A DNA stretch of 25,906 nucleotides from a virus (Duplodnaviria > Heunggongvirae > Uroviricota > Caudoviricetes): IMG/VR virus record IMGVR_UViG_2740892258_000020; one strand, 5' to 3'. Below, one piece after another: positions 1 through 25,906 of this stretch; position 1 is the stretch's first letter, and each line of letters opens with the position of its first letter. Under the pieces are notes generated by a model. It was given only the letters and a program-made list of their open reading frames with translations. It did not search any database and was not told the origin of the DNA. The position numbers were made by a program, and so were the translations under genes.

Positions 1-774
1 TCAATCTGTCAATGCAACACCCCTTTCAACTGCAAGCCCCCAGGTAAAGCAGTCATGCCCGCGCCCCGCCAGCGCCCCGGATTTGTACGCCTCAAGCGTT
101 ACATCAGCCGGGATGGTGGTTTCGCCGTATTCTTTGCGCAGCAGTTCGATAGATTCAGCGATCAGCGCGTCGGTCAGGTCGCGTGAGCAAAACAGGTATT
201 TCACGCCACCATAAACACGGTGGAAGCCCGTAATGTTGTATTCGTAAATGTCCTCCATTGAGTTAACGCTACCTTCCTCAAACTTGTCTGTAATCGCTTC
301 TACAGCCTCTTTGGTTGGGCCATCCGTCCACGAAACATAGAGCGCGTTATAGTCACGCATACGGACAGAAAACTTCACTCCGGGGAAATGCTTTTTCAGC
401 AGAATACGGATGTTTTTAGCGGCTAGCTTGGTGGTGTTGCTTTCGGTGGCCGTGGTCAGCAATCCGGCGTTTTCCGGGTCAGCGCTGGCGCGTTCGTTCG
501 CCAGCTGGCGGGCATCTTCTTTCGCCTGGTGTCTCGCTTCGCGCTGGTCGGTCACACTCTGCACAACCTGACGGCGGGCGCGGAGTTCATCGAGTGGAAG
601 GGTCTTATCGATCACCTGGTAAAAGCGCAGGGAAGTTTCCAGCAGCGGGGCGCAGGTTGGGGCATTCAGGCCGAGGATGGTATAGCTGATTTTGCCGTCA
701 GCCAGATTAACCGCGCTTACTACATACTCGTTTTTAAAAGAGGTGAGGCACTGGCCGACAGTTAAAGTAGTCAT
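1..774 (-). CDS. hypothetical protein (257 aa) in GC-rich flank outside the prophage structural module
   Basis: ORF 1..813 on minus strand; start most likely the internal ATG at 774..772, which has AGGAGT 7 nt upstream (the ORF-track start at 813 is a GTG). Stop at 1..3. No domain recognised. Confidence 0.55.
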
Positions 775-2511: not shown

Positions 2512-2527
2512 ATTACCTTTCAGGTAA
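2512..2527. promoter_or_regulatory. operator-like palindrome ATTACC-TTTCA-GGTAA, site 1, in the tailspike / 85-aa gene divergent region
   Basis: Inverted repeat TTACC-N5-GGTAA; one of five copies in the window, all intergenic. Confidence 0.55.
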
Positions 2528-2564
2528 TTTGCAAAACGTGCTGGATAGCAAACAAATTATTTGC

Positions 2565-2603: not shown

Positions 2604-2861
2604 ATGCAGCAGTATCACTATCCACTGGAAGACGGATTTACCGAAAGGATTCACACGCCGGGAGGCGTCAGGTCACTGGTGGAGGGATCGCACTTGATGA
2701 AATTACTCCGGGATCTCGATAAGGATGGATTTAATGTCGATGGCCCACTTGCCGAACTGACTGCACTGATTAACTACGTCACCAGCTCACAGATGTCTAT
2801 GCAGGATCTGCAAACACATCTCGACTATTGTGCCGAACAATTACGAAAACAAACCCGGTAA
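2604..2861 (+). CDS. small protein (85 aa) that is a standalone copy of the Bro-N antirepressor C-terminal domain; predicted SOS-inducible
   Basis: ATG at 2604 with GGAG 9 nt upstream (ORF-track start at 2481 is an unlikely extension). Residues ~15-75 (IHTPGGVRSLVEGSHLMKLLRDLDKDGFNVDGPLAELT...DLQTHLDY) align with the C-terminus of the 4247..4942 protein (IHSPSGVLGLTENSLLMNLLNQLQEDGHDVSGAAAELT...DIQTHAEY). Confidence 0.6.
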   Translation: MQQYHYPLEDGFTERIHTPGGVRSLVEGSHLMKLLRDLDKDGFNVDGPLAELTALINYVTSSQMSMQDLQTHLDYCAEQLRKQTR

Positions 2862-2884: not shown

Positions 2885-2885
2885 A

Positions 2886-3392
2886 TTAACAGTCGTAAAA
2901 TTCCGGGTCCCACAAACTTGCATCGCGCGGCATGGATTCTAAATTTTTCAGCCGCAAAATTCTGTCACACTCGACAAGAAGTTTTTGTTTTTGTTCGTCA
3001 ATTTCTACTTTTTTGTGTGCTGGCTCATCCCAGTAATCCAGAAGAAACGCATGTCGCTCAGACGTTACAAGATAAATCACATACACATCACTGGTTGGTA
3101 TTTTTTTATGCTTGTTGGTGGTCTTGTCTTTCTTCCCGGATGCCCAGTTTTTCCAGCATTGTTCCGTACCGCTCTCACCAAACTTGTCAGTATAGTTTCC
3201 GATGTTTACGTGAACGTGGCGTATGTGATATTCCAGCATCTCTTTCGGTGGATCCCGAAACAGAGTGTCCTTTCCGAAATCCTTATGATGACCGTAGCGC
3301 CAGTGATCTATGAACGCGTTTTTGATAGGTATTAGCTCAGGGTCCTTCCCAAAAATTCCAGGGTGAACCAACCCCTGGAATTTATTCAGCAT
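2886..3392 (-). CDS. YafO-family toxin-like protein (168 aa), probable mRNA-interferase type toxin
   Basis: Motifs resembling E. coli YafO as I recall it: PGIFGKD (YafO PDIFGRD), HVHVNIGNYTDKF (YafO IHLANENNPF), VYVIYLVTSERHAFLLDYWDEPAHKK (YafO HLVYCQGAFDEQAWLLIAILKPEPHK), plus a Lys-rich insertion. Start at ATG 3392..3390 with AGGAG 10 nt upstream; it overlaps the stop of the upstream gene by 11 nt. The ORF-track start at 3497 would give an implausible Arg/Ser/Cys-rich N-terminus. Confidence 0.5.
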   Translation of the reverse strand: MLNKFQGLVHPGIFGKDPELIPIKNAFIDHWRYGHHKDFGKDTLFRDPPKEMLEYHIRHVHVNIGNYTDKFGESGTEQCWKNWASGKKDKTTNKHKKIPTSDVYVIYLVTSERHAFLLDYWDEPAHKKVEIDEQKQKLLVECDRILRLKNLESMPRDASLWDPEFYDC

Positions 3393-3801
3393 CGTCGTAG
3401 AGCTCCTGAGCCATATCTTCGGCAGTGCGTGCAAACATCCTGCGCGAGATTGCATGAGATTTCTCGACGGACATCTTTGGGACCTCATGCATAACATTTT
3501 TGGGAGTTGTGTAATAGCCTATTACAATTTTCACACCTGACTTATGATTAATATCAGCATAATATACTTCTTGTTCAGACGTTTCACGACGAACATAATC
3601 TGCCAGTTTTCCACATTTAAATTCCCCTCCCTGATGTTTTAAAATCTCCTCAACTGCACTATTTTCAGTGAAATACCGAATAAGAAATTTCTGTCCAGAC
3701 TCTTCAGCATGAGGTATAACAGTATTATTGGAAGCCCGAACAATGGCCTTACTCAATATTTCATGGTCTTTATTTTTTTCTGATTTCCTCAAATGCTGCA
3801 T
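3382..3801 (-). CDS. unknown 139-aa protein translationally coupled to the toxin-like gene; candidate antitoxin or sensor partner
   Basis: ATG at 3801 with GAGAG upstream (ORF-track start at 3837 is TTG). Its stop lies inside the first codons of the downstream gene. Does not resemble YafN/Phd-type or RelB/RHH antitoxins that I can recognise. AT-rich. Confidence 0.6.
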   Translation of the reverse strand: MQHLRKSEKNKDHEILSKAIVRASNNTVIPHAEESGQKFLIRYFTENSAVEEILKHQGGEFKCGKLADYVRRETSEQEVYYADINHKSGVKIVIGYYTTPKNVMHEVPKMSVEKSHAISRRMFARTAEDMAQELYDDAE

Positions 3802-3933
3802 TACTGTAGCTCTCTTCGTGTTCACGGGCACCCCCAACTACCTCTAGGGTAAACATTCTATCGAAAGTATACGCATACTGGCAAAAAAATAGGCAGGTAT
3901 TTTCTGAAATGGGATCAATCAAACCACATAGGG

Positions 3934-3977
3934 TTGAAATAACGTGAGTTATGCATTTATTATTACCTTTGCGGTAA
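3934..3977 (+). promoter_or_regulatory. sigma70-like promoter (TTGAAA-17/18-TATTAT) overlapped at the -10/+1 region by operator palindrome site 2 (ATTACC-TTTGC-GGTAA, 3962..3977)
   Basis: Good -35 and -10 hexamers with correct spacing; palindrome begins inside the -10. Points toward the Bro-N gene. Confidence 0.5.
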
Positions 3978-4069
3978 ATTTACATCGCACTCCTCTTGTG
4001 CCATAGTAATCGGGCACTGGAAAAATCCAGTGCCGGGATTGGCGTCCCGGATTACTAAAAGGCGCATTC

Positions 4070-4246: not shown

Positions 4247-4942
4247 ATGACAGCTACAAAAAGCACGTCCATTTTTTCTTTCGAATCCCAAGCCGATATA
4301 CGGGTAATCGTCATTAATGGTGAGCCATGGTTTATCGCTTCAGATGTTTGTCGGGCTATAGGCATAGCAAATCATCGAGATGCTGTTCGAAAACTTGATG
4401 ATGATGAGAAGGGCGTCGCTTCAACCGACACCCCTGGCGGTGAGCAAGAATCGATCATCATCTCCGAGTCAGGCCTCTACACACTGATCCTCCGCTGCCG
4501 CGACGCAGTGACACCAGGCACTATCCCCTACCGCTTTCGTAAATGGGTTACAGGTGAGGTTCTTCCTCAGATCCGCCGCACCGGAAGTTACATTAAAAAC
4601 TCGCTCCCGCAGGAAGAACGCATAAAGATGGTTGCCGACCAGGTAGCCAACGCCACAGCATCAGCAGTGATGCAGGCAATGAAGATAGAGAACAAAACCT
4701 ACAGTGCCCCACTGAAGCCCGGCTACCGCAGCCTGATTCATTCGCCGTCTGGTGTTCTCGGCCTGACGGAGAACTCACTGCTGATGAATCTGCTGAACCA
4801 GTTACAGGAAGACGGGCACGACGTATCGGGCGCGGCGGCGGAGCTGACCACCATGTTCTGCTACATCGTCGGTGTGAGCAAGTGCCTGCGTGATATCCAG
4901 ACGCACGCGGAGTACATCAACGACAAGGCTGGGTTCTTCTGA
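4247..4942 (+). CDS. Bro-N domain phage antirepressor-like protein (231 aa) with a C-terminal domain shared with the 85-aa protein
   Basis: N-terminus FSFESQADIRVIVINGEPWFIASDVCRAIGIANHRDAVRKLDDDEK...ESGLYTLILRCRDAVTPGTIPYRFRKWVTGEVLPQIRRTG is the canonical Bro-N (phage antirepressor N-terminal) signature. Confidence 0.8.
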   Translation: MTATKSTSIFSFESQADIRVIVINGEPWFIASDVCRAIGIANHRDAVRKLDDDEKGVASTDTPGGEQESIIISESGLYTLILRCRDAVTPGTIPYRFRKWVTGEVLPQIRRTGSYIKNSLPQEERIKMVADQVANATASAVMQAMKIENKTYSAPLKPGYRSLIHSPSGVLGLTENSLLMNLLNQLQEDGHDVSGAAAELTTMFCYIVGVSKCLRDIQTHAEYINDKAGFF

Positions 4943-4979: not shown

Positions 4980-5023
4980 TTGGCGATGTGATGTAGATTC
5001 GCGTAATATTACCTTACGGGTAA
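4980..5023 (+). promoter_or_regulatory. sigma70-like promoter (TTGGCG-18-TAATAT) overlapped by operator palindrome site 3 (ATTACC-TTACG-GGTAA, 5008..5023)
   Basis: Same promoter/operator geometry as at 3934..3977; about 60 nt upstream of the 210-aa gene. Confidence 0.45.
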
Positions 5024-5082
5024 GAAAGCGTTTTTAATCTTCCCTTCAAAACGCGTCCTGTAGCCAAACATGGGAGGACGAA

Positions 5083-5715
5083 ATGAAAACAAATACAACA
5101 AGAAAAGCGATGCCATACATTATCCCAGAAGCAGATTTCGACAGAAAACTGAACATGTCTGAGAAGAACACTAGTCACACCGAAAGCTACTTAGCGAAAG
5201 GTGTGGTTGATTTCGTTCTTCCGGGATTCACAACACCTTATGGTTATCGCCTTGTAAAATCTTGTAATGGCGATCATTACAGAATGATTACTACCAGCGA
5301 TACTCCAGAAACGGTGTATGCGGTTAAGTTAATCTTTCGGGAAGATATCGTCGAAGCTAAAAGAACATGTACGCAGATCATGGTATGGCGTACGCCTAAT
5401 GTTATTCATGACCGTGCTGTTCATGGTTTGCCTCAGATTTTTTTTCAGTTCTTCCTAGAGCAATATGCGATCGTTGTATCTGATGAGCAACAAACAATCG
5501 ATGGGAGAAGATTCTGGGAAAGAATGATTTCTTGGGCTATAAACACCCCGGGATATAATGTATACGTTTCAGATGGCTCTGAAGAAGATAGACCTCTTAG
5601 CTTCATGACATCATGGGATGATTTCTATAGCCAGTGGGCTGATTTCTGTTGGGGCAGTGATAAAGATGTGCATACCCACAGACTACTGGTTATAAGCAAA
5701 GATAAACTGCATTAA
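5083..5715 (+). CDS. hypothetical cargo protein (210 aa), monocistronic
   Basis: ATG with GGGAGGA RBS 5 nt upstream; followed by a strong intrinsic terminator; AT-rich; no recognisable motif. Confidence 0.7.
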   Translation: MKTNTTRKAMPYIIPEADFDRKLNMSEKNTSHTESYLAKGVVDFVLPGFTTPYGYRLVKSCNGDHYRMITTSDTPETVYAVKLIFREDIVEAKRTCTQIMVWRTPNVIHDRAVHGLPQIFFQFFLEQYAIVVSDEQQTIDGRRFWERMISWAINTPGYNVYVSDGSEEDRPLSFMTSWDDFYSQWADFCWGSDKDVHTHRLLVISKDKLH

Positions 5716-19321: not shown

Positions 19322-20023
19322 TTATTTGCCATAGAGCACTTCGGCCGCACTACGCTGGCCTTCATTACCACCGGTGACCATGCCATCTTCAGACATCGCC
19401 TTTCCGATTTTCACGAACGTTTTGACCAGATCAGGGTGATTACCCAGCCCGGTGGTGTTCAGATATTCTTTGAGTTCAGGTGTCCCGAACTGGTCAAGCG
19501 CACGCTGTGCGGCGCTAAGGTTAGAAATCAACTTGTCGCCACCGATTTCTTTGTCAGCTTTTACATCCGCAGCCCACTGCTCGGTTGTTTTCTGCCAGGC
19601 TTCTGCCTGGCGCTGCTGAACACCTGCCAGAATCTTCGGATAAGCATCAACCAGCTTTTGCGCTTGCTCGTTGGTCAGGTTAAGTTCTCGCGCCACCGGC
19701 TCGAATTCCTTCAACGCTTCTGTATCCAGCTCTACGCCTTCGGCAGCCTGAAACTCGTACTTCTCAGGCGCACCCTCTGGTTTATCGCCGTCCTTTTTTT
19801 CATCCTGCTTATCGTTTTCAGGCTTTTTGTCATCAGCAGGTTTATCGCCATCAGCAACAGGTTGTGGCTTATCACCTTCCTGTTGTGATGGATCACCAAC
19901 TGGAGCAGGGTTATCACCTGCAGGCGCTGACGGTTCTGACGCAGCCGGAGCTGCTCCACCATCGACTGGTTGCTCATTGCAAAGACGGCTATACAGCAAA
20001 CGCTCAAATAAATTCATGATCAC
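19322..20023 (-). CDS. scaffolding protein (233 aa)
   Basis: Highly acidic, Pro/Asp/Lys-rich N-terminal half and predicted-helical C-terminal half; lies between portal and capsid genes; 4-nt overlap with the upstream gene. Confidence 0.6.
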   Translation of the reverse strand: MIMNLFERLLYSRLCNEQPVDGGAAPAASEPSAPAGDNPAPVGDPSQQEGDKPQPVADGDKPADDKKPENDKQDEKKDGDKPEGAPEKYEFQAAEGVELDTEALKEFEPVARELNLTNEQAQKLVDAYPKILAGVQQRQAEAWQKTTEQWAADVKADKEIGGDKLISNLSAAQRALDQFGTPELKEYLNTTGLGNHPDLVKTFVKIGKAMSEDGMVTGGNEGQRSAAEVLYGK

Positions 20024-20316
20024 TCCTGTTCACTGGCCTCTTTGGCCATCTTCAAATACTGTTCAGGACAATGCGCCATAACGCGCTGAAACAGTTCCAG
20101 CGCCAGATTGCGTTGCCCCTCATTAAATGCCATTGCCATAGCGTCCATCGGTGAGATAGCGGAAAACACACGGCCTTTCTCCAGCACCGACCAGACAACG
20201 CGACGCCCCTGTTCACTGCTCATGACAAAGCGAATGTCATCAATTTCACGCTGTGCCATGTCACGTTGCTTACGGGCGTTTTCTTCTTTCAGTTGATCGT
20301 CTTCGTAATCTGTCAT
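20020..20316 (-). CDS. small acidic protein (98 aa) between portal and scaffold
   Basis: ORF with ATGA-type overlaps to the portal stop and the scaffold start; function unknown. Confidence 0.5.
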   Translation of the reverse strand: MTDYEDDQLKEENARKQRDMAQREIDDIRFVMSSEQGRRVVWSVLEKGRVFSAISPMDAMAMAFNEGQRNLALELFQRVMAHCPEQYLKMAKEASEQE

Positions 20317-22281: not shown

Positions 22282-22318
22282 TTGACATTTAACGCGTTAA
22301 TTATTACCTTTCAGGTAA
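22282..22318 (+). promoter_or_regulatory. TTGACA -35-like hexamer followed by operator palindrome site 4 (ATTACC-TTTCA-GGTAA, 22303..22318); possible plus-strand promoter for the tRNA/moron unit
   Basis: Consensus TTGACA at 22282..22287 with the palindrome centred where a -10 would be; the -10 match itself is poor. Confidence 0.4.
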
Positions 22319-22650
22319 CCAAAGGGCTCATTCTGGTTACTAACCTGACTGGCTTGTCGTTAAATTAAACAGGTGGAGTGAGCTTTTATTTTGAGCAGTA
22401 CGGCGTATGGCACATGCGCCGATAGCGGTCTGGATACGTTTAAGGGGCACCCTCCCTTGCTCGGGCAAACGAACCAGGTAGCCGGAATGTGCAAGTCGAG
22501 CGGTTTTATTCCGCGCACGGGGATTCACCATCCCGGCGATTCGGTGTGACGCCTCGGAAGAGACGAGGGTACAACGATGAGAGCATTTATGGAGCCGCGA
22601 CAAAGTGTGGCGCCTTAACAGGCTAAGTGCTCTCAGCGTTGTGGCATTAG

Positions 22651-23338: not shown

Positions 23339-23360
23339 CGCCGTGACATGTCACAATCAG

Positions 23361-23385: not shown

Positions 23386-24857
23386 GCAAAAGGATCATAG
23401 TCTGTGATGGCTTTGCCTTGCTGGTTCTGCTGCCCGGGAATTCGCAGACGCTTCGACACAGGGAACGCAAACGTCAGCAGTAGCGCATCGCCTTTACCAG
23501 GAGAACGCCCAAGTCGCTCTTTGATATCTTCCTTCGGTTCGATAACGATTTTACCGTCCACGCGAACTTTGTACTCTGCCGTCGACAGGTCGTCCGCTGT
23601 TTCCTGGTCATCCAGCATGCCGCCGAGCCTCAGCCATGTCTTGCATGAGTTGAACATCTCCCCACGCTTGTTGAGCATCTGCGGGTCAGTAGACGCGCCA
23701 CCGAACGGAACAAGTTGCCATGTACGACCCCAGCCGTCACCGATTGACTTCAAACCGGTTCCGTAACCGAAGTCGATGAACACCGCGTCAGCCTGATACT
23801 GGTCTTCAAAGTCAGCGATACGCTTCGCCATAATCAGATCGTCGGTAGTCTTGTTGCCAGTCCACAGCACCTTACTGTGTAGCCCCTGCCGCAGGTATAT
23901 CACCGCGTCATCAACGCCTGAATATGCCGGGTCAACACCGATTATCACCGGAGCATGTGCCACCTGCGCAGCGGTTACCACCCGTTTCATTGCCTCGTCA
24001 GTAAGACCGGTAGGGATAAACTGCAATTCAGATGCATCAGGGAATATGCCACGCACACGGATTTTAACGAAGTCGCTATCTTCCCCATAGTCATCAACCC
24101 ATTTCTGCAACTGCTGTTTGTTGGTGCCTTCCACCGTCCTGCTGTCAATCTGCGCAGTTTTCCAGCGGTGTTTGTATTTGCGGAAACATTCACGGAAACG
24201 CCCGGTGTTACGTGTAGGGTTTCCGAAAGCCACCCAGATAATCTCAGTGTCTTCGTCCGTTAGCGCACCCTCGGCAACTTCCCACACCAGATCCGCAATG
24301 TTCGACGCTTCATCAAATACCACGATGATGCGTTTACGCTCGTTGTGTAGTCCGGCGAATGCCTCAGTGTTGTGCTCAGACCAGGGGATTGCGTCAGCTC
24401 GCCACCGCTTGTCGTGCCCAGGGTCATTGCTGTACATCGCGGTAGCGGTACAGGTAAACCAGTCTTTCGTGATAGCAAGGTTTGACCACTTGATAATTTC
24501 CGGCCAGGTCTTCGTTCGTAGCTGGTTGTCGGTGTTGGCGGTCACCACGACCTTACAATCCTCGCAAGTGGACATGCCCCAGTTGATCAGCATTGAGATG
24601 AATGCGGATTTACCAATACCGTGACCAGAAGCACGTGCCAGCATAAGCGGCTGATATCGCGTCTCTGGATTCTGCAGGTGATCACGTATCTCTCGGAACG
24701 CATCGGCCTGCCACTGACGTGGACCGGTGGCATGTGCCAGTTCAGTACCCTCTTCCCCCCACGGGAACGCATAGAGGGCATAGCCAAGCGGATCGTGAGT
24801 GAACCCTGCAATATCCTCGATTAACTGCTCTTCAGGAGATAACGCTGTATCTGTCAC
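23382..24857 (-). CDS. terminase large subunit (491 aa)
   Basis: Walker A-like ARASGHGIGKS, Walker B-like IIVVFDEAS, and a C-terminal nuclease-like region (VIIGVDPAYSG...VFIDFGYG); 4-nt overlap with the small-subunit gene. Confidence 0.9.
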   Translation of the reverse strand: MTDTALSPEEQLIEDIAGFTHDPLGYALYAFPWGEEGTELAHATGPRQWQADAFREIRDHLQNPETRYQPLMLARASGHGIGKSAFISMLINWGMSTCEDCKVVVTANTDNQLRTKTWPEIIKWSNLAITKDWFTCTATAMYSNDPGHDKRWRADAIPWSEHNTEAFAGLHNERKRIIVVFDEASNIADLVWEVAEGALTDEDTEIIWVAFGNPTRNTGRFRECFRKYKHRWKTAQIDSRTVEGTNKQQLQKWVDDYGEDSDFVKIRVRGIFPDASELQFIPTGLTDEAMKRVVTAAQVAHAPVIIGVDPAYSGVDDAVIYLRQGLHSKVLWTGNKTTDDLIMAKRIADFEDQYQADAVFIDFGYGTGLKSIGDGWGRTWQLVPFGGASTDPQMLNKRGEMFNSCKTWLRLGGMLDDQETADDLSTAEYKVRVDGKIVIEPKEDIKERLGRSPGKGDALLLTFAFPVSKRLRIPGQQNQQGKAITDYDPFA

Positions 24858-25450
24858 TGATTGCCATCCTGGCGTTCTTTCAGTCTCTTCCTGGCTGCCG
24901 CTATGCGATCAGCAATTGTCACATTCACATTAACATCCAGGCGTTCTTTGAATGCGTTGACGTCGACGTGCTTACCAATCAGTTCGAGGTTCTTCACCTT
25001 GTCAGGCCATTTAATTTTTTTGAGGATTGTCTCTATCGAATCCTCGTTCATGTTCATGATGGTCGATGACAGATCAAAGCCACTAAGCGTAGTGCGCCAG
25101 ATTTTCGGCCACTCGCGGATTGGCTTAAGGCTCCCATCGTCGTTGAGGATGTCGATCACGTCCATCTGGTCGATCTCCACCAGGCGCATGAGAACGTAAT
25201 CAGCACTGACGCGCATTCGTTTGTTGCGCTCTTCCATCAGCTCGGCAATCCGTTTTTGAATGCGTTCATCGCGCATCATGAGACTGGCTTTAACTGCCGC
25301 TGTATTTGGGGAGAATCCTGCGTTAATCGCTGCCTGAGTCTGGTTTTCAGGCGTTTTGATGTATGACTGGCAATAAGCCTCCTGCATTGCTGTTAGTGGC
25401 TTAAATTGCGTTGATTTGCGTTTATAGGCTTTAGGTTCAGCAGGCATCAT
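24854..25450 (-). CDS. terminase small subunit (198 aa from ATG at 25450; ORF extends in frame to 25546)
   Basis: Immediately upstream of and overlapping the large terminase; region TAMQEAYCQSYIKTPENQTQAAINAGFSPNTAAVKASLMM matches the small-terminase pattern (conserved AA..AG.S..A..A motif). The upstream in-frame extension is low-complexity and contains palindromic repeats, so the shorter start is preferred. Confidence 0.75.
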   Translation of the reverse strand: MMPAEPKAYKRKSTQFKPLTAMQEAYCQSYIKTPENQTQAAINAGFSPNTAAVKASLMMRDERIQKRIAELMEERNKRMRVSADYVLMRLVEIDQMDVIDILNDDGSLKPIREWPKIWRTTLSGFDLSSTIMNMNEDSIETILKKIKWPDKVKNLELIGKHVDVNAFKERLDVNVNVTIADRIAAARKRLKERQDGNQ

Positions 25451-25466
25451 AACCACCGTGGTAATA

Positions 25467-25483
25467 GTTACCGTTGTGGTAAT
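25467..25483. promoter_or_regulatory. operator palindrome site 5 (GTTACC-GTTGT-GGTAAT) within a tandem array of GGTAAT/TTACC half-sites upstream of the small-terminase gene
   Basis: GTGGTAATAGTTACCGTTGTGGTAATAGTACC (25458..25489) contains TTACC-N5-GGTAA flanked by further GGTAAT and TACC half-sites. Confidence 0.45.
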
Positions 25484-25567
25484 AGTACCATGCAAAATAA
25501 AGCCGCCATAGTTGGCGGCAGTATTCAAAACCATCAAATTCATCATGCATAACCCACTCGTGACATG

Positions 25568-25906
25568 TCACAATATTAATTTCGTTTCATGCCAGCCTTT
25601 GGTCACCCAGCATTGCGAGTCACCATTACACGGGCATGAATTCACAGGAACTCTCTCGCCGCACTTACCGCAACGTTTTCTGCTGATCGATTTTATACGC
25701 CCGTGCACGCGAGCATCATCCTGGCGGATAAGTAACGCAATATACTCACCAAATTCGTAAGGCGCACGCCCGGGGCGACGCGTGGCACAGTTACGCTCCA
25801 GCATTTCAATTTCCTGAGCATCAAGCACAATCTCCAGTTTACGCACACCAGATGCAGCTTGTCTGGCTCTCTGAGCGGCTTTGCGCTCTGCTGCTGATTT
25901 AGCCAT
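25568..25906 (-). CDS. Cys-rich small protein (112 aa), possible zinc-binding protein; ATG is the last three bases of the window
   Basis: Basic, helical N-terminal half and C-terminal cluster CGKCGERVPVNSCPCNGDSQC (CxxC-x8-CxC). Upstream region is outside the window. Confidence 0.55.
   Translation of the reverse strand: MAKSAAERKAAQRARQAASGVRKLEIVLDAQEIEMLERNCATRRPGRAPYEFGEYIALLIRQDDARVHGRIKSISRKRCGKCGERVPVNSCPCNGDSQCWVTKGWHETKLIL

What the first reader, a model, noticed from the sequence alone, without database searches (positions are those of the whole stretch)
25458..25489. Tandem half-site array in the small-terminase 5-prime region
GTGGTAATAGTTACCGTTGTGGTAATAGTACC contains alternating GGTAAT and TTACC half-sites, forming both GGTAA-N3-TTACC palindromes and one TTACC-N5-GGTAA operator-type site. 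It lies within the low-complexity in-frame extension (TITTTVTITTVV) upstream of the more plausible small-terminase start, so it is more likely regulatory DNA than coding. It may couple terminase expression to the same regulator as the cargo promoters, or be part of a pac-like recognition region.
Basis: seen in the sequence. Interest (0 to 1): 0.4.

Follow-up and report, generated by a model that had tools for sequence, protein, structure and literature searches.

The report
Prophage repressor operators before terminase gene
The repeated GGTAAT/TTACC half-sites are non-coding binding sites for the prophage's own repressor, placed on the promoter and ribosome-binding site of the small-terminase gene; the matching site is already annotated in the related phage epsilon15, so the feature is ordinary.

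Summary
The window is an epsilon15/phiV10-like (Uetakevirus) prophage with its late genes on the minus strand.

Read on that strand, the region has this order:
- an intrinsic terminator (25519-25493);
- an extended -10-like element, TGGTACTAT (25490-25482);
- operator O1, ATTACC-ACAAC-GGTAAC (25483-25467);
- one base;
- a weaker operator O2, ATTACC-ACGGT-GGTTAT (25465-25449), which covers the Shine-Dalgarno GGTGG and touches the first ATG;
- terS.

The real repeat unit is TTACC-N5-GGTAA. The GGTAA-N3-TTACC "palindrome" is only the junction between O1 and O2.

The epsilon15 GenBank record annotates the orthologous site, and six more of the same consensus, as repressor-binding sites. The motif occurs 5 times exactly in the window against 0.43 matches expected at the threshold used (up to one mismatch; 7 found). 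It also flanks the rep gene in an identical E. coli prophage.

In 27 distinct relatives the half-sites are invariant, while the spacers, the junction base and the O1-O2 distance vary. The long reading frame is intact in only 7 of 93 loci and shows no third-codon-position bias.

Verdict: regulatory, not coding. It is most likely a repressor lock on terminase expression. A pac role is unsupported. The kind is already known and interest is low. One practical by-product: RefSeq and the phiV10 record place the terS start too far upstream.

The parts
25467..25483 (-). Operator O1, ATTACCACAACGGTAAC. It is a full-consensus Uetakevirus Rep operator (ATTACC-N5-GGTAAY) and the ortholog of the epsilon15 'protein_bind repressor' feature at 12..27.
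   Evidence: Exact TTACC-N5-GGTAA match. Coordinates. epsilon15 annotation and sequence. Half-sites are invariant and the spacer varies in 27 distinct relatives. PWM rank 5 of 25,886.
25449..25465 (-). Operator O2, ATTACCACGGTGGTTAT. It is a weaker site with one core mismatch (GGTTA), centred 18 bp from O1. It covers the SD and overlaps the first ATG by 2 nt.
   Evidence: One-mismatch hit. PWM rank 7 of 25,886, which is marginal in absolute score (7.5 bits against 6.7 for the best background position). The internal N5 spacing is kept in relatives even where 1-2 nt are inserted between O1 and O2. The mismatch sits in the left half in epsilon15-type phages (TTACT) and in the right half here. The site is more degenerate in SPC32H (TTGCT) and L013.
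25482..25490 (-). Candidate extended -10 promoter element, TGGTACTAT (TGn + TACTAT). Its last two bases are the first two of O1. The predicted transcription start falls in the O1 spacer.
   Evidence: TG, T-12 and A-11 are invariant in 27 distinct relatives, while the 'n' base and the third hexamer base vary. There is no -35 element, the consensus scan did not call it, and no transcription start has been mapped. This part is inferred.
25493..25519 (-). Intrinsic terminator, GCCGCCAACTATGGCGGC plus TTTATTTTG. It ends the upstream (early-right) operon and lies inside the long 'extension' ORF.
   Evidence: Terminator scan gives a 7-bp stem with 6 GC pairs followed by a T-run. RNA fold -14.5 kcal/mol, z = -4.7. 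The ortholog is annotated as a rho-independent terminator in epsilon15 at 39646-39672.
25453..25457 (-). Shine-Dalgarno GGTGG for terS, lying inside O2.
   Evidence: It lies 5 nt upstream of ATG2. The orthologous GGTGG is annotated as the ribosome-binding site in phage Tyrion at 92..96.
24854..25447 (-). terS, the small terminase (Terminase_2 / PF03592). The conserved start is ATG2 at 25447; ATG1 at 25450 is an optional extra codon.
   Evidence: Pfam PF03592, E = 7.5e-30. PHROG homology begins at residue 35 of the long ORF. epsilon15-type relatives have a single ATG aligned with ATG2, and relative L131 has lost ATG1. Codon-position bias is 54/15/4 (third/first/second) inside this CDS.
2512..2528 (.). 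Rep operator ATTACCTTTCAGGTAAT in the divergent ant / tailspike intergenic region.
   Evidence: Exact match. It is orthologous to the epsilon15 annotated site 19895..19911 and to SPC32H position 20013.
2604..2861 (+). ant, an 85-aa antirepressor, 88% identical to SPC32H Ant.
   Evidence: BLASTP 73/83 identities, E = 6e-57. PHROG 450/1760.
3962..3978 (.). Rep operator ATTACCTTTGCGGTAAA, about 270 bp upstream of the BRO-N/Ant-like gene (4247-4942).
   Evidence: Exact match. Gene identities.
3837..3853 (.). One-mismatch operator-like site, about 14 bp upstream of the RefSeq-equivalent start (about 3824) of the gene that precedes the YafO-family toxin gene.
   Evidence: PWM score 13.9, rank 6.
5008..5024 (.). 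Rep operator ATTACCTTACGGGTAAG upstream of an accessory gene (5083-5715). A TAATAT -10-like hexamer abuts it in the same register as at terS.
   Evidence: Exact match. The promoter reading is by eye only.
22303..22319 (.). Rep operator ATTACCTTTCAGGTAAC between the terS-terL block and the gp3/portal operon. It is the ortholog of the epsilon15 annotated site 2931..2947.
   Evidence: Exact match and epsilon15 annotation.
25568..25906 (-). Upstream gene, the epsilon15 gp49 / phiV10 p55 homolog (PHROG 536, 'transcriptional regulator', Cys-rich C-terminus). It is the last gene before the terminator.

Best explanation
The array is a pair of adjacent operators for the prophage's CI-like repressor (Rep, the epsilon15 gp38 / SPC32H Rep family). 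It lies in the short non-coding gap between the terminator of the early-right operon and terS.

O1 (25467-25483) is a full-consensus site. It abuts, and overlaps by two bases, a conserved extended -10-like element (TGGTACTAT) and covers the predicted transcription start. O2 (25449-25465) is a weaker site that covers the Shine-Dalgarno sequence and touches the start codon.

In the lysogen, Rep bound here keeps RNA polymerase off the terS-terL promoter, or blocks anything that reads through the terminator. Terminase, which could cut the integrated prophage, is therefore not made. When the antirepressor Ant (encoded at 2604-2861) strips Rep from DNA, this promoter opens together with the other Rep-controlled units (ant/tailspike, the gp3-portal operon, the accessory genes).

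What is shown:
- the motif, its enrichment, its orthology to an annotated repressor site and its conservation pattern;
- the non-coding status of the region;
- the presence of a cognate Rep and Ant.

What is inferred:
- that Rep actually binds here;
- that TGGTACTAT is the promoter;
- that repression works by occlusion;
- that O2 is functional.
For: 1. Orthology. The epsilon15 GenBank record marks TTACCAAAACGGTAAT (12..27), immediately upstream of its terS, as 'protein_bind: repressor'. It marks six more sites of consensus ATTACC-N5-GGTAAT in the same way. The window's O1 aligns with that site column for column.

2. Enrichment. There are 7 sites at up to 1 mismatch (5 exact) in the window against 0.43 expected, and no shuffle reached 7. 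In 271 kb of terS loci from other genomes the exact motif occurs 10 times, always just upstream of terS and only in the epsilon15-like relatives.

3. Same motif at the immunity region. In E. coli IHE3034, whose prophage is 100% identical to the last 1363 nt of the window, TTACC-N5-GGTAA sites flank a rep gene identical to phiV10 p40. That Rep matches the SPC32H Rep crystal structure 5D50 at E = 4e-42 and is 42% identical to epsilon15 gp38. An Ant 88% identical to SPC32H Ant is encoded in the window.

4. Conservation pattern. In 27 distinct sequences from Escherichia, Salmonella, Klebsiella, Citrobacter, Kluyvera, Erwinia and others, ATTACC, GTAA, TTA, the TG and the TA are invariant. The N5 spacers, the junction base and the O1-O2 distance (+0, +1 or +2 nt) vary. 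Among 54 distinct close relatives, all 5 variable positions inside the array fall outside the half-site cores.

5. Not coding.
- The upstream in-frame ATG exists in only 7 of 93 loci.
- Five lineages have stop codons 3-36 nt upstream of the start.
- Variable sites upstream are 3/3/6 by codon position (third/first/second), against 54/15/4 inside terS.
- A strong terminator sits inside the supposed extension.
- Family homology starts at the downstream Met.

6. O2. It ranks 7th of 25,886 positions with a matrix trained without terS sites. Tandem operators 17 bp apart also occur at the epsilon15 and SPC32H OR region.
Against: No binding, footprint or transcription-start data for this site could be retrieved. 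The three primary papers (Kropinski 2007; Kim & Ryu 2013; Kim et al. 2016) are not in the held library. The epsilon15 annotation may itself be a sequence-based prediction.

The promoter call is weak in itself. The hexamer is TACTAT (4 of 6), there is no -35, and the consensus scan did not flag it. Its last bases are also part of the operator.

O2's score is barely above the best background positions (7.5 against 6.7 bits). Part of its conservation can be explained by the SD and start codon. It is more degenerate in SPC32H and L013, and its distance from O1 is not fixed.

The rep gene is not inside the window. In addition, the left end of the window is fused to plasmid DNA, so whether this particular copy sits with a working Rep is unknown.
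Confidence: 0.85

Rival explanations
1. Rep bound at O1-O2 acts as a roadblock, in the manner of a 'stoperator'. terS is normally transcribed by read-through or antitermination from the operon upstream, and there is no promoter in the gap. The operators stop elongating polymerase or leaky read-through; they do not occlude a promoter.
For: The operators lie directly downstream of a terminator. A promoter-like GTGACA-N18-CATGAT (9 of 12) lies between the upstream gene and that terminator, an arrangement reminiscent of lambda PR'-tR'. The upstream gene falls in a PHROG annotated 'transcriptional regulator'. The local -10 has no -35.
Against: TG, T-12 and A-11 are invariant in 27 distinct relatives while the bases between them vary. 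That pattern fits a -10 element, and other operators in these genomes do not show this flank. No antiterminator has been identified: Pfam, NCBIfam and PDB sequence searches of the upstream protein found nothing.
Confidence: 0.2
2. The array is coding. It is the N-terminal extension (…GTITTTVTITTVV…) of a longer small terminase starting at ATG 25546 or TTG 25528, as annotated for phiV10 and by RefSeq PGAP.
For: The frame is open in the window. The phiV10 GenBank record and RefSeq (IHE3034) both annotate a 224-aa form that starts at the TTG.
Against: - The ATG at 25546 is in frame in only 7 of 93 related loci.
- Stops interrupt the frame in L006, L008, L010, L012 and L153.
- 1-2 nt indels occur between O1 and O2.
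- 6 of 12 upstream polymorphisms are at second codon positions and only 3 at third, against 4 of 73 and 54 of 73 in terS.
- An intrinsic terminator lies inside the extension.
- Pfam and PHROG homology begins at the downstream Met.
- epsilon15, TL-2011b, EC.W1-9, Tyrion and SPC32H all annotate the short form.
Confidence: 0.03
3. The array is, or doubles as, part of the packaging-recognition (pac) region bound by the small terminase, as pacL lies at the gene 1 promoter of SPP1.
For: TerS belongs to Terminase_2. The epsilon15 record links its TerS by HHpred to the Bacillus phage SF6 small terminase. From my own knowledge, not tested here, SPP1/SF6 pac spans the 5' end and promoter of the terS gene. 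Repeats next to terS are a classic pac signature.
Against: The same motif occurs at 5 or more other places in the window and 8-12 times exactly per related genome, including on both sides of rep. A pac signal should be unique. The motif is a dyad-symmetric site of the type bound by a helix-turn-helix dimer. No virion-end data could be found. The record start points of related phages scatter across this region and look conventional.
Confidence: 0.05
4. The array works at the RNA level. The complementary half-sites fold the terS leader into a hairpin that sequesters the SD and start codon.
For: The 51-nt minus-strand RNA 25490-25440 folds at -16.9 kcal/mol (z = -2.5), with GGUGG and AUG paired.
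Against: Any tandem palindromic operators give such a fold. The version that starts inside O1 is not better than shuffled sequence (z = -1.07). RNAalifold on 14 diverse relatives keeps only the trivial O1 self-hairpin plus a 3-pair stem (-4.7 kcal/mol overall). It finds no compensatory change, and the SD-sequestering stem is not conserved. Spacer changes that break CCAC:GUGG pairing (ACAAC to AUAAC or AAAAC) are not compensated.
Confidence: 0.05

Closest known systems
Repressor-binding sites of Salmonella phage epsilon15, as annotated in GenBank AY150271.2 (Kropinski et al. 2007). The repressor family is that of Salmonella phage SPC32H Rep (PDB 5D50/5D4Z), which is inactivated by the antirepressor Ant.
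   Same: - Same 17-bp dyad, ATTACC-N5-GGTAAT.
- Same position, between a terminator and terS.
- Same genome-wide distribution: terS, the gp3/portal operon, the ant-tailspike intergenic region, both sides of rep, and the replication region.
- A homologous Rep (in the identical IHE3034 prophage) and a homologous Ant (in the window).
   Different: The window belongs to the phiV10 / E. coli branch, whose GenBank and RefSeq records do not annotate operators and read this DNA as terS coding sequence. O1's right flank is C where the consensus has T. The second, weaker site O2 is not annotated in epsilon15. Here O2 has a perfect left half and an imperfect right half, the reverse of epsilon15.
Phage P1 C1 repressor regulon, which has many operators scattered over the genome (from my own knowledge)
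   Same: A single prophage repressor is proposed to shut many separate transcription units directly, late and accessory units included. It does not rely only on two operators at the immunity region.
   Different: P1 operators are asymmetric 17-mers bound by a monomeric C1 of an unrelated fold. Here the sites are dyad-symmetric, and Rep is an HTH_3-type protein reported to act as a tetramer (PMC9638917). No sequence relationship exists, so this is an analogy only.
Mycobacteriophage L5 gp71 'stoperators' (from my own knowledge)
   Same: Repressor sites lie in short intergenic gaps of late operons, downstream of possible read-through transcription. This fits the roadblock rival.
   Different: Stoperators are asymmetric, orientation-dependent and number about 30. 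Here the sites are symmetric, few, and mostly next to -10-like hexamers.
SPP1/SF6 pacL-pacR region at the 5' end of the small-terminase gene (from my own knowledge)
   Same: The TerS family is related (Terminase_2), and short repeats overlap the terS promoter region.
   Different: The repeats here are the immunity operator and are not unique in the genome. No terminus data link them to packaging.

Membership tests
Uetakevirus (epsilon15/SPC32H-type) Rep operator | 17-bp dyad ATTACC-N5-GGTAAT | tested here: met
   O1 is ATTACCACAACGGTAAC, with an exact 5+5 core. O2 has one core mismatch. PWM ranks are 5 and 7 of 25,886.
Uetakevirus (epsilon15/SPC32H-type) Rep operator | Positional orthology to a site annotated as repressor-binding in the type phage | tested here: met
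   The epsilon15 protein_bind 'repressor' feature at 12..27 aligns with O1, between the same terminator and terS.
Uetakevirus (epsilon15/SPC32H-type) Rep operator | The same motif forms the operators around the repressor gene of the same phage | tested here: met
   This was tested by proxy. rep is outside the window, but the IHE3034 prophage is 100% identical over the last 1363 nt of the window. It has exact sites at L168 6087, 6799 and 6861 around rep. The same holds in phiV10, Tyrion, epsilon15 and SPC32H.
Uetakevirus (epsilon15/SPC32H-type) Rep operator | A cognate Rep (HTH N-domain plus tetramerisation domain) and antirepressor Ant are encoded by the element | tested here: met
   Rep in IHE3034 is identical to phiV10 p40 and matches PDB 5D50 at E = 4e-42. 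Ant at window 2604-2861 is 88% identical to SPC32H Ant. Rep was not seen in the window itself.
Uetakevirus (epsilon15/SPC32H-type) Rep operator | Half-sites under selection while spacers are free | tested here: met
   Shown by 27 distinct sequences and by the polymorphism map of 54 close relatives.
Uetakevirus (epsilon15/SPC32H-type) Rep operator | Physical binding by Rep and Rep-dependent repression of the adjacent gene | not testable with these tools
   This needs EMSA or footprinting and reporter assays. The primary papers are not held.
Extended -10 sigma-70 promoter | TGnTATAAT-like element with conserved TG, T-12, A-11 and T-7 | tested here: inconclusive
   The element is TGGTACTAT. The key positions are invariant in 27 relatives. 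However, the hexamer matches only 4 of 6, its last two bases are shared with O1, the consensus scan made no call, and the motif has low information content.
Extended -10 sigma-70 promoter | A transcription start about 7 nt downstream | not testable with these tools
   No transcript data are available.
pac site of headful phages with a Terminase_2 TerS | A recognition sequence that is unique in the genome | tested here: not met
   The motif occurs 5 times exactly in the window and 8-12 times exactly per related genome.
pac site of headful phages with a Terminase_2 TerS | Virion DNA ends or the first packaging cut map to the site, and TerS binds it | not testable with these tools
   No terminus data were found.
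Protein-coding N-terminal extension of TerS | Reading frame and start codon conserved in relatives, with substitutions biased to the third codon position | tested here: not met
   The long ORF is intact in 7 of 93 loci, and stops and frameshifting indels occur in relatives. Upstream variable sites are 3/3/6 by codon position (third/first/second), against 54/15/4 in terS.
Structured RNA leader / translational operator | A conserved secondary structure with compensatory changes | tested here: not met
   RNAalifold found 0 compensatory pairs among 8 predicted pairs: the O1 self-hairpin and a 3-pair stem.

The most novel reading that the evidence does not exclude
The adjacent O1-O2 pair, centred 18 bp apart, may be a dedicated 'terminase lock'. 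On this reading one Rep tetramer, whose two DNA-binding pairs come from different dimers, clamps the promoter, SD and start codon of terS at once. This would protect the integrated prophage from in-situ terminase cutting. The same DNA might also serve as the entry point for TerS, so that repressor and small terminase would compete for one site and so link release from immunity to the start of packaging.
Probability: 0.06. Interest if true: 0.45.

Novelty: already known. Interest (0 to 1): 0.12.

Why it matters
The conceptual value is small. The finding confirms that epsilon15/phiV10-like prophages place their immunity operator directly on the terminase promoter region, as the epsilon15 annotation already implied.

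The practical value is modest but real:
1. The phiV10 GenBank record and RefSeq/PGAP annotations of E. coli prophages start terS 26 codons too early. They translate a terminator and two operators as protein.
2. The TTACC-N5-GGTAA map gives a ready list of Rep-controlled units in these common E. coli, Salmonella and Klebsiella prophages: terS-terL, the gp3/portal operon, ant/tailspike and the accessory genes. That list is useful for anyone engineering phiV10-type reporter phages or studying their induction.

Tried and rejected
- Primary literature. I tried to read Kropinski 2007 (PMC2698709), Kim & Ryu 2013 (PMC3807360) and Kim et al. 2016 (PMC4983836 / PMID 27099293). None is held. Statements about Rep biochemistry therefore rest on secondary descriptions (PMC9638917; PMC9986798) and on my own memory.
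- Packaging strategy. Literature searches for the packaging mode or ends of Uetakeviruses found nothing usable.
- Third operator. I considered one formed by GGTACT at 25484-25489 and rejected it. Its register and left half do not fit. The conserved TG..TA there reads better as a -10 element.
- N3 palindrome. I considered GGTAA-N3-TTACC as a unit and rejected it, because it is not enriched and is explained by the O1/O2 junction.
- RNA hairpin. Rejected for lack of conservation.
- Co-variation with heteroimmune relatives. This test was not possible. Every epsilon15-like relative retrieved, including prophages from Pseudomonas lundensis and Samsonia, uses the same or a near-identical half-site pair.
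- Upstream gp49-like protein. Pfam, NCBIfam and PDB sequence searches were empty. A single-sequence AlphaFold model had pLDDT 43 and was not used.
Full report
**What the window is**

The 3' kilobase of the window matches phiV10-like and epsilon15-like podophages (genus Uetakevirus) at 92-98% identity. The matches include TL-2011b, O157 typing phages 9 and 10, vB_EcoP_ZX5 and phiV10. More distant matches (79-87%) are Tyrion, SPN1S/SPC32H and epsilon15. Window 1,827-25,000 aligns at about 98% to the late region of the same phages, in reverse orientation. The genes around the finding are therefore on the minus strand:
- a gp49/p55-like gene at 25906-25568;
- terS, ending at 24854;
- terL at 24857-23382.

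**The observation**

On the minus strand the region contains, in order (coordinates):
- the stop codon of the upstream gene (25570-25568);
- a 12-bp palindrome, GTGACATGTCAC (25571-25560);
- an intrinsic terminator, GCCGCCAACTATGGCGGC plus TTTATTTTG (25519-25493), with a 7-bp stem, 6 GC pairs, -14.5 kcal/mol and z = -4.7;
- TGGTACTAT (25490-25482);
- O1, ATTACC-ACAAC-GGTAAC (25483-25467);
- a single T;
- O2, ATTACC-ACGGT-GGTTAT (25465-25449);
- ATG ATG CCT..., with ATG1 at 25450 and ATG2 at 25447.

That pattern is not enriched in the window: 2 matches against 0.48 expected, and 6 of 100 shuffles did as well. TTACC-N5-GGTAA is strongly enriched: 5 exact sites and 2 with one mismatch, against 0.43 expected, and 0 of 100 shuffles reached 7.

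**Identity of the motif**

The epsilon15 GenBank record (AY150271.2) carries seven 'protein_bind: repressor / lysogeny' features. Their sequences share the consensus ATTACC-N5-GGTAAT. The first of them, at 12..27 (TTACCAAAACGGTAAT), lies between a terminator annotated at the end of the record and terS, which starts at 47. In a multiple alignment it falls on the same columns as the window's O1.

Whole-genome scans give 8 exact sites in phiV10, 12 in epsilon15, 9 in Tyrion and 10 in SPC32H. In each genome the sites occupy the same places:
- upstream of terS;
- upstream of the gp3/portal operon;
- in the ant-tailspike intergenic region;
- on both sides of rep;
- two sites 62 bp apart ahead of the replication-proximal genes.

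The window's other exact sites fall at the homologous late-region positions:
- 2513, in the ant/tailspike intergenic region;
- 22304, before gp3/portal;
- 3963, upstream of the BRO-N gene;
- 5009, upstream of an accessory gene.

A one-mismatch site at 3838 lies just upstream of the gene that precedes a YafO-family toxin gene.

**The regulator**

rep lies outside the window. However, the last 1363 nt of the window are identical to a guaA-integrated prophage of E. coli IHE3034. That prophage encodes a 194-aa HTH protein identical to phiV10 p40, with TTACC-N5-GGTAA sites on both sides of the gene. This protein is 42% identical to the epsilon15 repressor, with the N-terminal HTH region best conserved. 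It matches the SPC32H Rep crystal structure 5D50 at E = 4e-42.

The window itself encodes an 85-aa protein (2604-2861) that is 88% identical to SPC32H Ant, the antirepressor. According to a secondary account, SPC32H Rep binds DNA as a tetramer whose DNA-binding pairs come from different dimers, and Ant breaks up the tetramer (PMC9638917).

**Coding or not**

Five lines of evidence say the array is not translated.

1. The upstream in-frame ATG (25546) exists in only 7 of 93 related loci. In most phiV10-type relatives a 1-nt difference puts a stop 84 nt upstream of the start, with no ATG in between. Five more distant lineages (L006, L008, L010, L012, L153) have stops 3-36 nt upstream, inside or next to the operators.
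2. One- and two-nucleotide indels occur between O1 and O2.
3. Among 54 distinct close relatives, 73 variable sites inside terS split 54/15/4 by codon position (third/first/second). The 12 variable sites in the 84 nt upstream split 3/3/6.
4. A strong terminator sits inside the putative extension.
5. Pfam Terminase_2 and PHROG 51 homology begin at the downstream Met.

The conserved start is ATG2 (25447). epsilon15-type phages have only that ATG, and one relative (L131) has mutated ATG1 to ATT.

Annotations disagree on this point. epsilon15, TL-2011b, EC.W1-9, Tyrion and SPC32H use the short form. phiV10 and RefSeq PGAP (IHE3034) use a TTG at 25528 and so translate the terminator and both operators.

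**Conservation pattern**

The 27 distinct sequences come from Escherichia, Salmonella, Klebsiella, Citrobacter, Pseudocitrobacter, Kluyvera, Scandinavium, Superficieibacter, Pseudescherichia and Erwinia prophages and from IMG/VR contigs. The invariant columns are TG, TA, ATTACC and GTAA of O1, TTA of O2 and parts of its right half. The N5 spacers (ACAAC, AAAAC, ATAAC, AAAAT, AAATC, ATATT, TTCAT, TGCAT, ACGAC), the junction base and the 'n' of TGn all vary.

Within the close relatives, the five polymorphic positions inside the array are 25488, 25485, 25476, 25466 and 25458. All lie outside the half-site cores. By my own arithmetic, not a tool result, the chance of this is about 0.02, from C(20,5)/C(40,5).

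Two more distant prophages, from Pseudomonas lundensis and Samsonia erythrinae, also carry an exact TTACC-N5-GGTAA just upstream of terS. In 271 kb of terS loci from 80 genomes the exact motif occurs nowhere else.

**Is O2 real?**

A weight matrix built from 37 operators at other genome positions ranks O2 7th of 25,886 window positions. Its score, 7.5 bits, is only just above the best background positions, 6.7 and 6.1 bits.

In favour of O2:
- It sits exactly next to O1.
- Its internal N5 spacing is kept when bases are inserted between the two sites.
- The single mismatch is on opposite sides in the two main lineages: TTACC...GGTTA here and in Tyrion, TTACT...GGTAA in epsilon15.
- Adjacent operator pairs 17 bp apart occur at OR of epsilon15 and SPC32H.

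Against O2:
- It overlaps the SD and the start codon, and these alone would conserve part of it.
- It is more degenerate in SPC32H (TTGCT) and L013.
- It is the only adjacent pair in the window.

I treat O2 as probable, not established.

**Mechanism**

The conserved TGnTA(C/G/T)TAT directly upstream of O1 has the form of an extended -10 promoter. TG, T-12 and A-11 are invariant, while the two least important positions vary. Other operators in these genomes lack the TG..TA flank. If this element is the promoter, transcription would start in the O1 spacer. O1 would cover about -8 to +9 and O2 about +11 to +27, which is the classic geometry for promoter occlusion.

This step is inference. There is no -35, the hexamer matches only 4 of 6, and the consensus scan did not call it.

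The main alternative keeps Rep as the regulator but makes the pair a roadblock to transcription that comes through the terminator. A promoter-like GTGACA-N18-CATGAT lies between the upstream gene and the terminator, which recalls the lambda PR'-tR' layout.

On either reading, the biological logic is that a lysogen must not make terminase, and the Rep/Ant switch opens terS together with the other operator-bearing units.

**Other rivals**

- pac site. The motif is the immunity operator and is present many times per genome, so it cannot by itself specify a unique packaging start. No terminus data were found.
- RNA hairpin. The leader can fold so as to bury the SD (-16.9 kcal/mol, z = -2.5), but this follows automatically from tandem palindromes. 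It is not better than shuffles for a transcript that starts in O1 (z = -1.07). It also has no covariation support: RNAalifold found 8 pairs, the O1 self-hairpin plus a 3-pair stem, with 0 compensatory changes.

**Comparison with known systems and novelty**

The site is the ortholog of a repressor-binding site already annotated in the type phage epsilon15. It belongs to the Rep/Ant immunity system characterised in SPC32H. Functionally, a single repressor acting at many scattered sites resembles the P1 C1 regulon or, on the roadblock reading, the L5 stoperators. Both comparisons are analogies only.

What goes slightly beyond the existing annotation:
- the second weak site over the SD and start codon;
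- the conserved TGnTAnTAT element;
- the evidence that the phiV10 and RefSeq terS starts are wrong.

I rate the feature 'already known' and of low interest.

**Limits**

No experimental binding or transcript data could be consulted or produced here. The epsilon15 features may themselves be sequence-based predictions. rep was seen only in an identical prophage, not in the window. The left end of the window (about 1-1555) is conjugative-plasmid leading-region DNA fused to a truncated tailspike gene, so the genomic setting of this particular copy is uncertain.

Noticed in passing
window 25560-25571 and 23343-23354 (one-mismatch copy at 20253-20264); L004 2142, 19517, 39612; L086 2262, 19493, 39101; L167 2702, 20377, 41755: The perfect 12-bp palindrome GTGACATGTCAC occurs three times in each of epsilon15, phiV10 (one copy there with a single mismatch) and Tyrion, always at the end of an operon next to a terminator: after the gp49-like gene, after terL and after the last structural gene. 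It is not the Rep operator and I cannot name its binding factor. In the window its enrichment is weak (3 hits at up to 2 mismatches against 1.06 expected), but the positional conservation across phages is striking.
   Followed up: partly
window 25542-25571 (- strand) with terminator 25493-25519: A promoter-like GTGACA-N18-CATGAT (9 of 12) lies directly after the gp49-like gene and about 20 nt before a strong terminator. The layout recalls lambda PR'-tR' downstream of Q. The upstream 112-aa protein has a Cys-rich C-terminus and falls in PHROG 536 ('transcriptional regulator'), but it has no Pfam, NCBIfam or PDB match, and its single-sequence AlphaFold model was unusable (pLDDT 43).
   Followed up: partly
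window 1-~1555 and 1509-2408: The first ~1.55 kb is DNA from the leading region of conjugative plasmids (LPD29 and DUF1380 proteins; at least 5000 plasmid records match). It is fused to an endosialidase-type tailspike gene that is cut off after about 299 codons. No record in the phage, plasmid or E. coli collections spans the junction. The window is therefore either a real phage-plasmid recombinant or an assembly chimera.
   Followed up: partly
window 25448-25528; L168 311-985; L086 41-715: RefSeq PGAP (E. coli IHE3034, WP_024187282.1) and the phiV10 GenBank record both start terS at a TTG 26 codons upstream. They thereby translate a terminator and two operators. Comparative data favour the ATG at 25447.
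   Followed up: yes
L086, L167, L168, L004, L169 (e.g. L168 3718/3780 and 6799/6861; L004 35907/35969): Outside the terS site, Rep operators often come in pairs exactly 62 bp apart (start to start). This is seen to the left of rep in phiV10, Tyrion and IHE3034, once among the three left-side sites of epsilon15 and SPC32H, and ahead of the replication-proximal genes in all five genomes. The spacing, close to six helical turns, would suit one tetramer bridging two sites.
   Followed up: no
window 2885-3824 (- strand) and 3837-3853: A YafO-family toxin gene and a preceding small gene sit between ant and the BRO-N gene as prophage cargo. A one-mismatch Rep-operator-like site lies just upstream of the pair's start.
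   Followed up: no
L015 1463 (Pseudomonas lundensis) and L016 1417 (Samsonia erythrinae): Prophages from hosts distant from E. coli (a Pseudomonas and Samsonia erythrinae), with only 66-67% TerS identity, still carry an exact TTACC-N5-GGTAA immediately upstream of terS. In L015 it lies directly over the AAGGAGG ribosome-binding site. This suggests that the operator-terS linkage and the immunity specificity are old and widespread.
   Followed up: no
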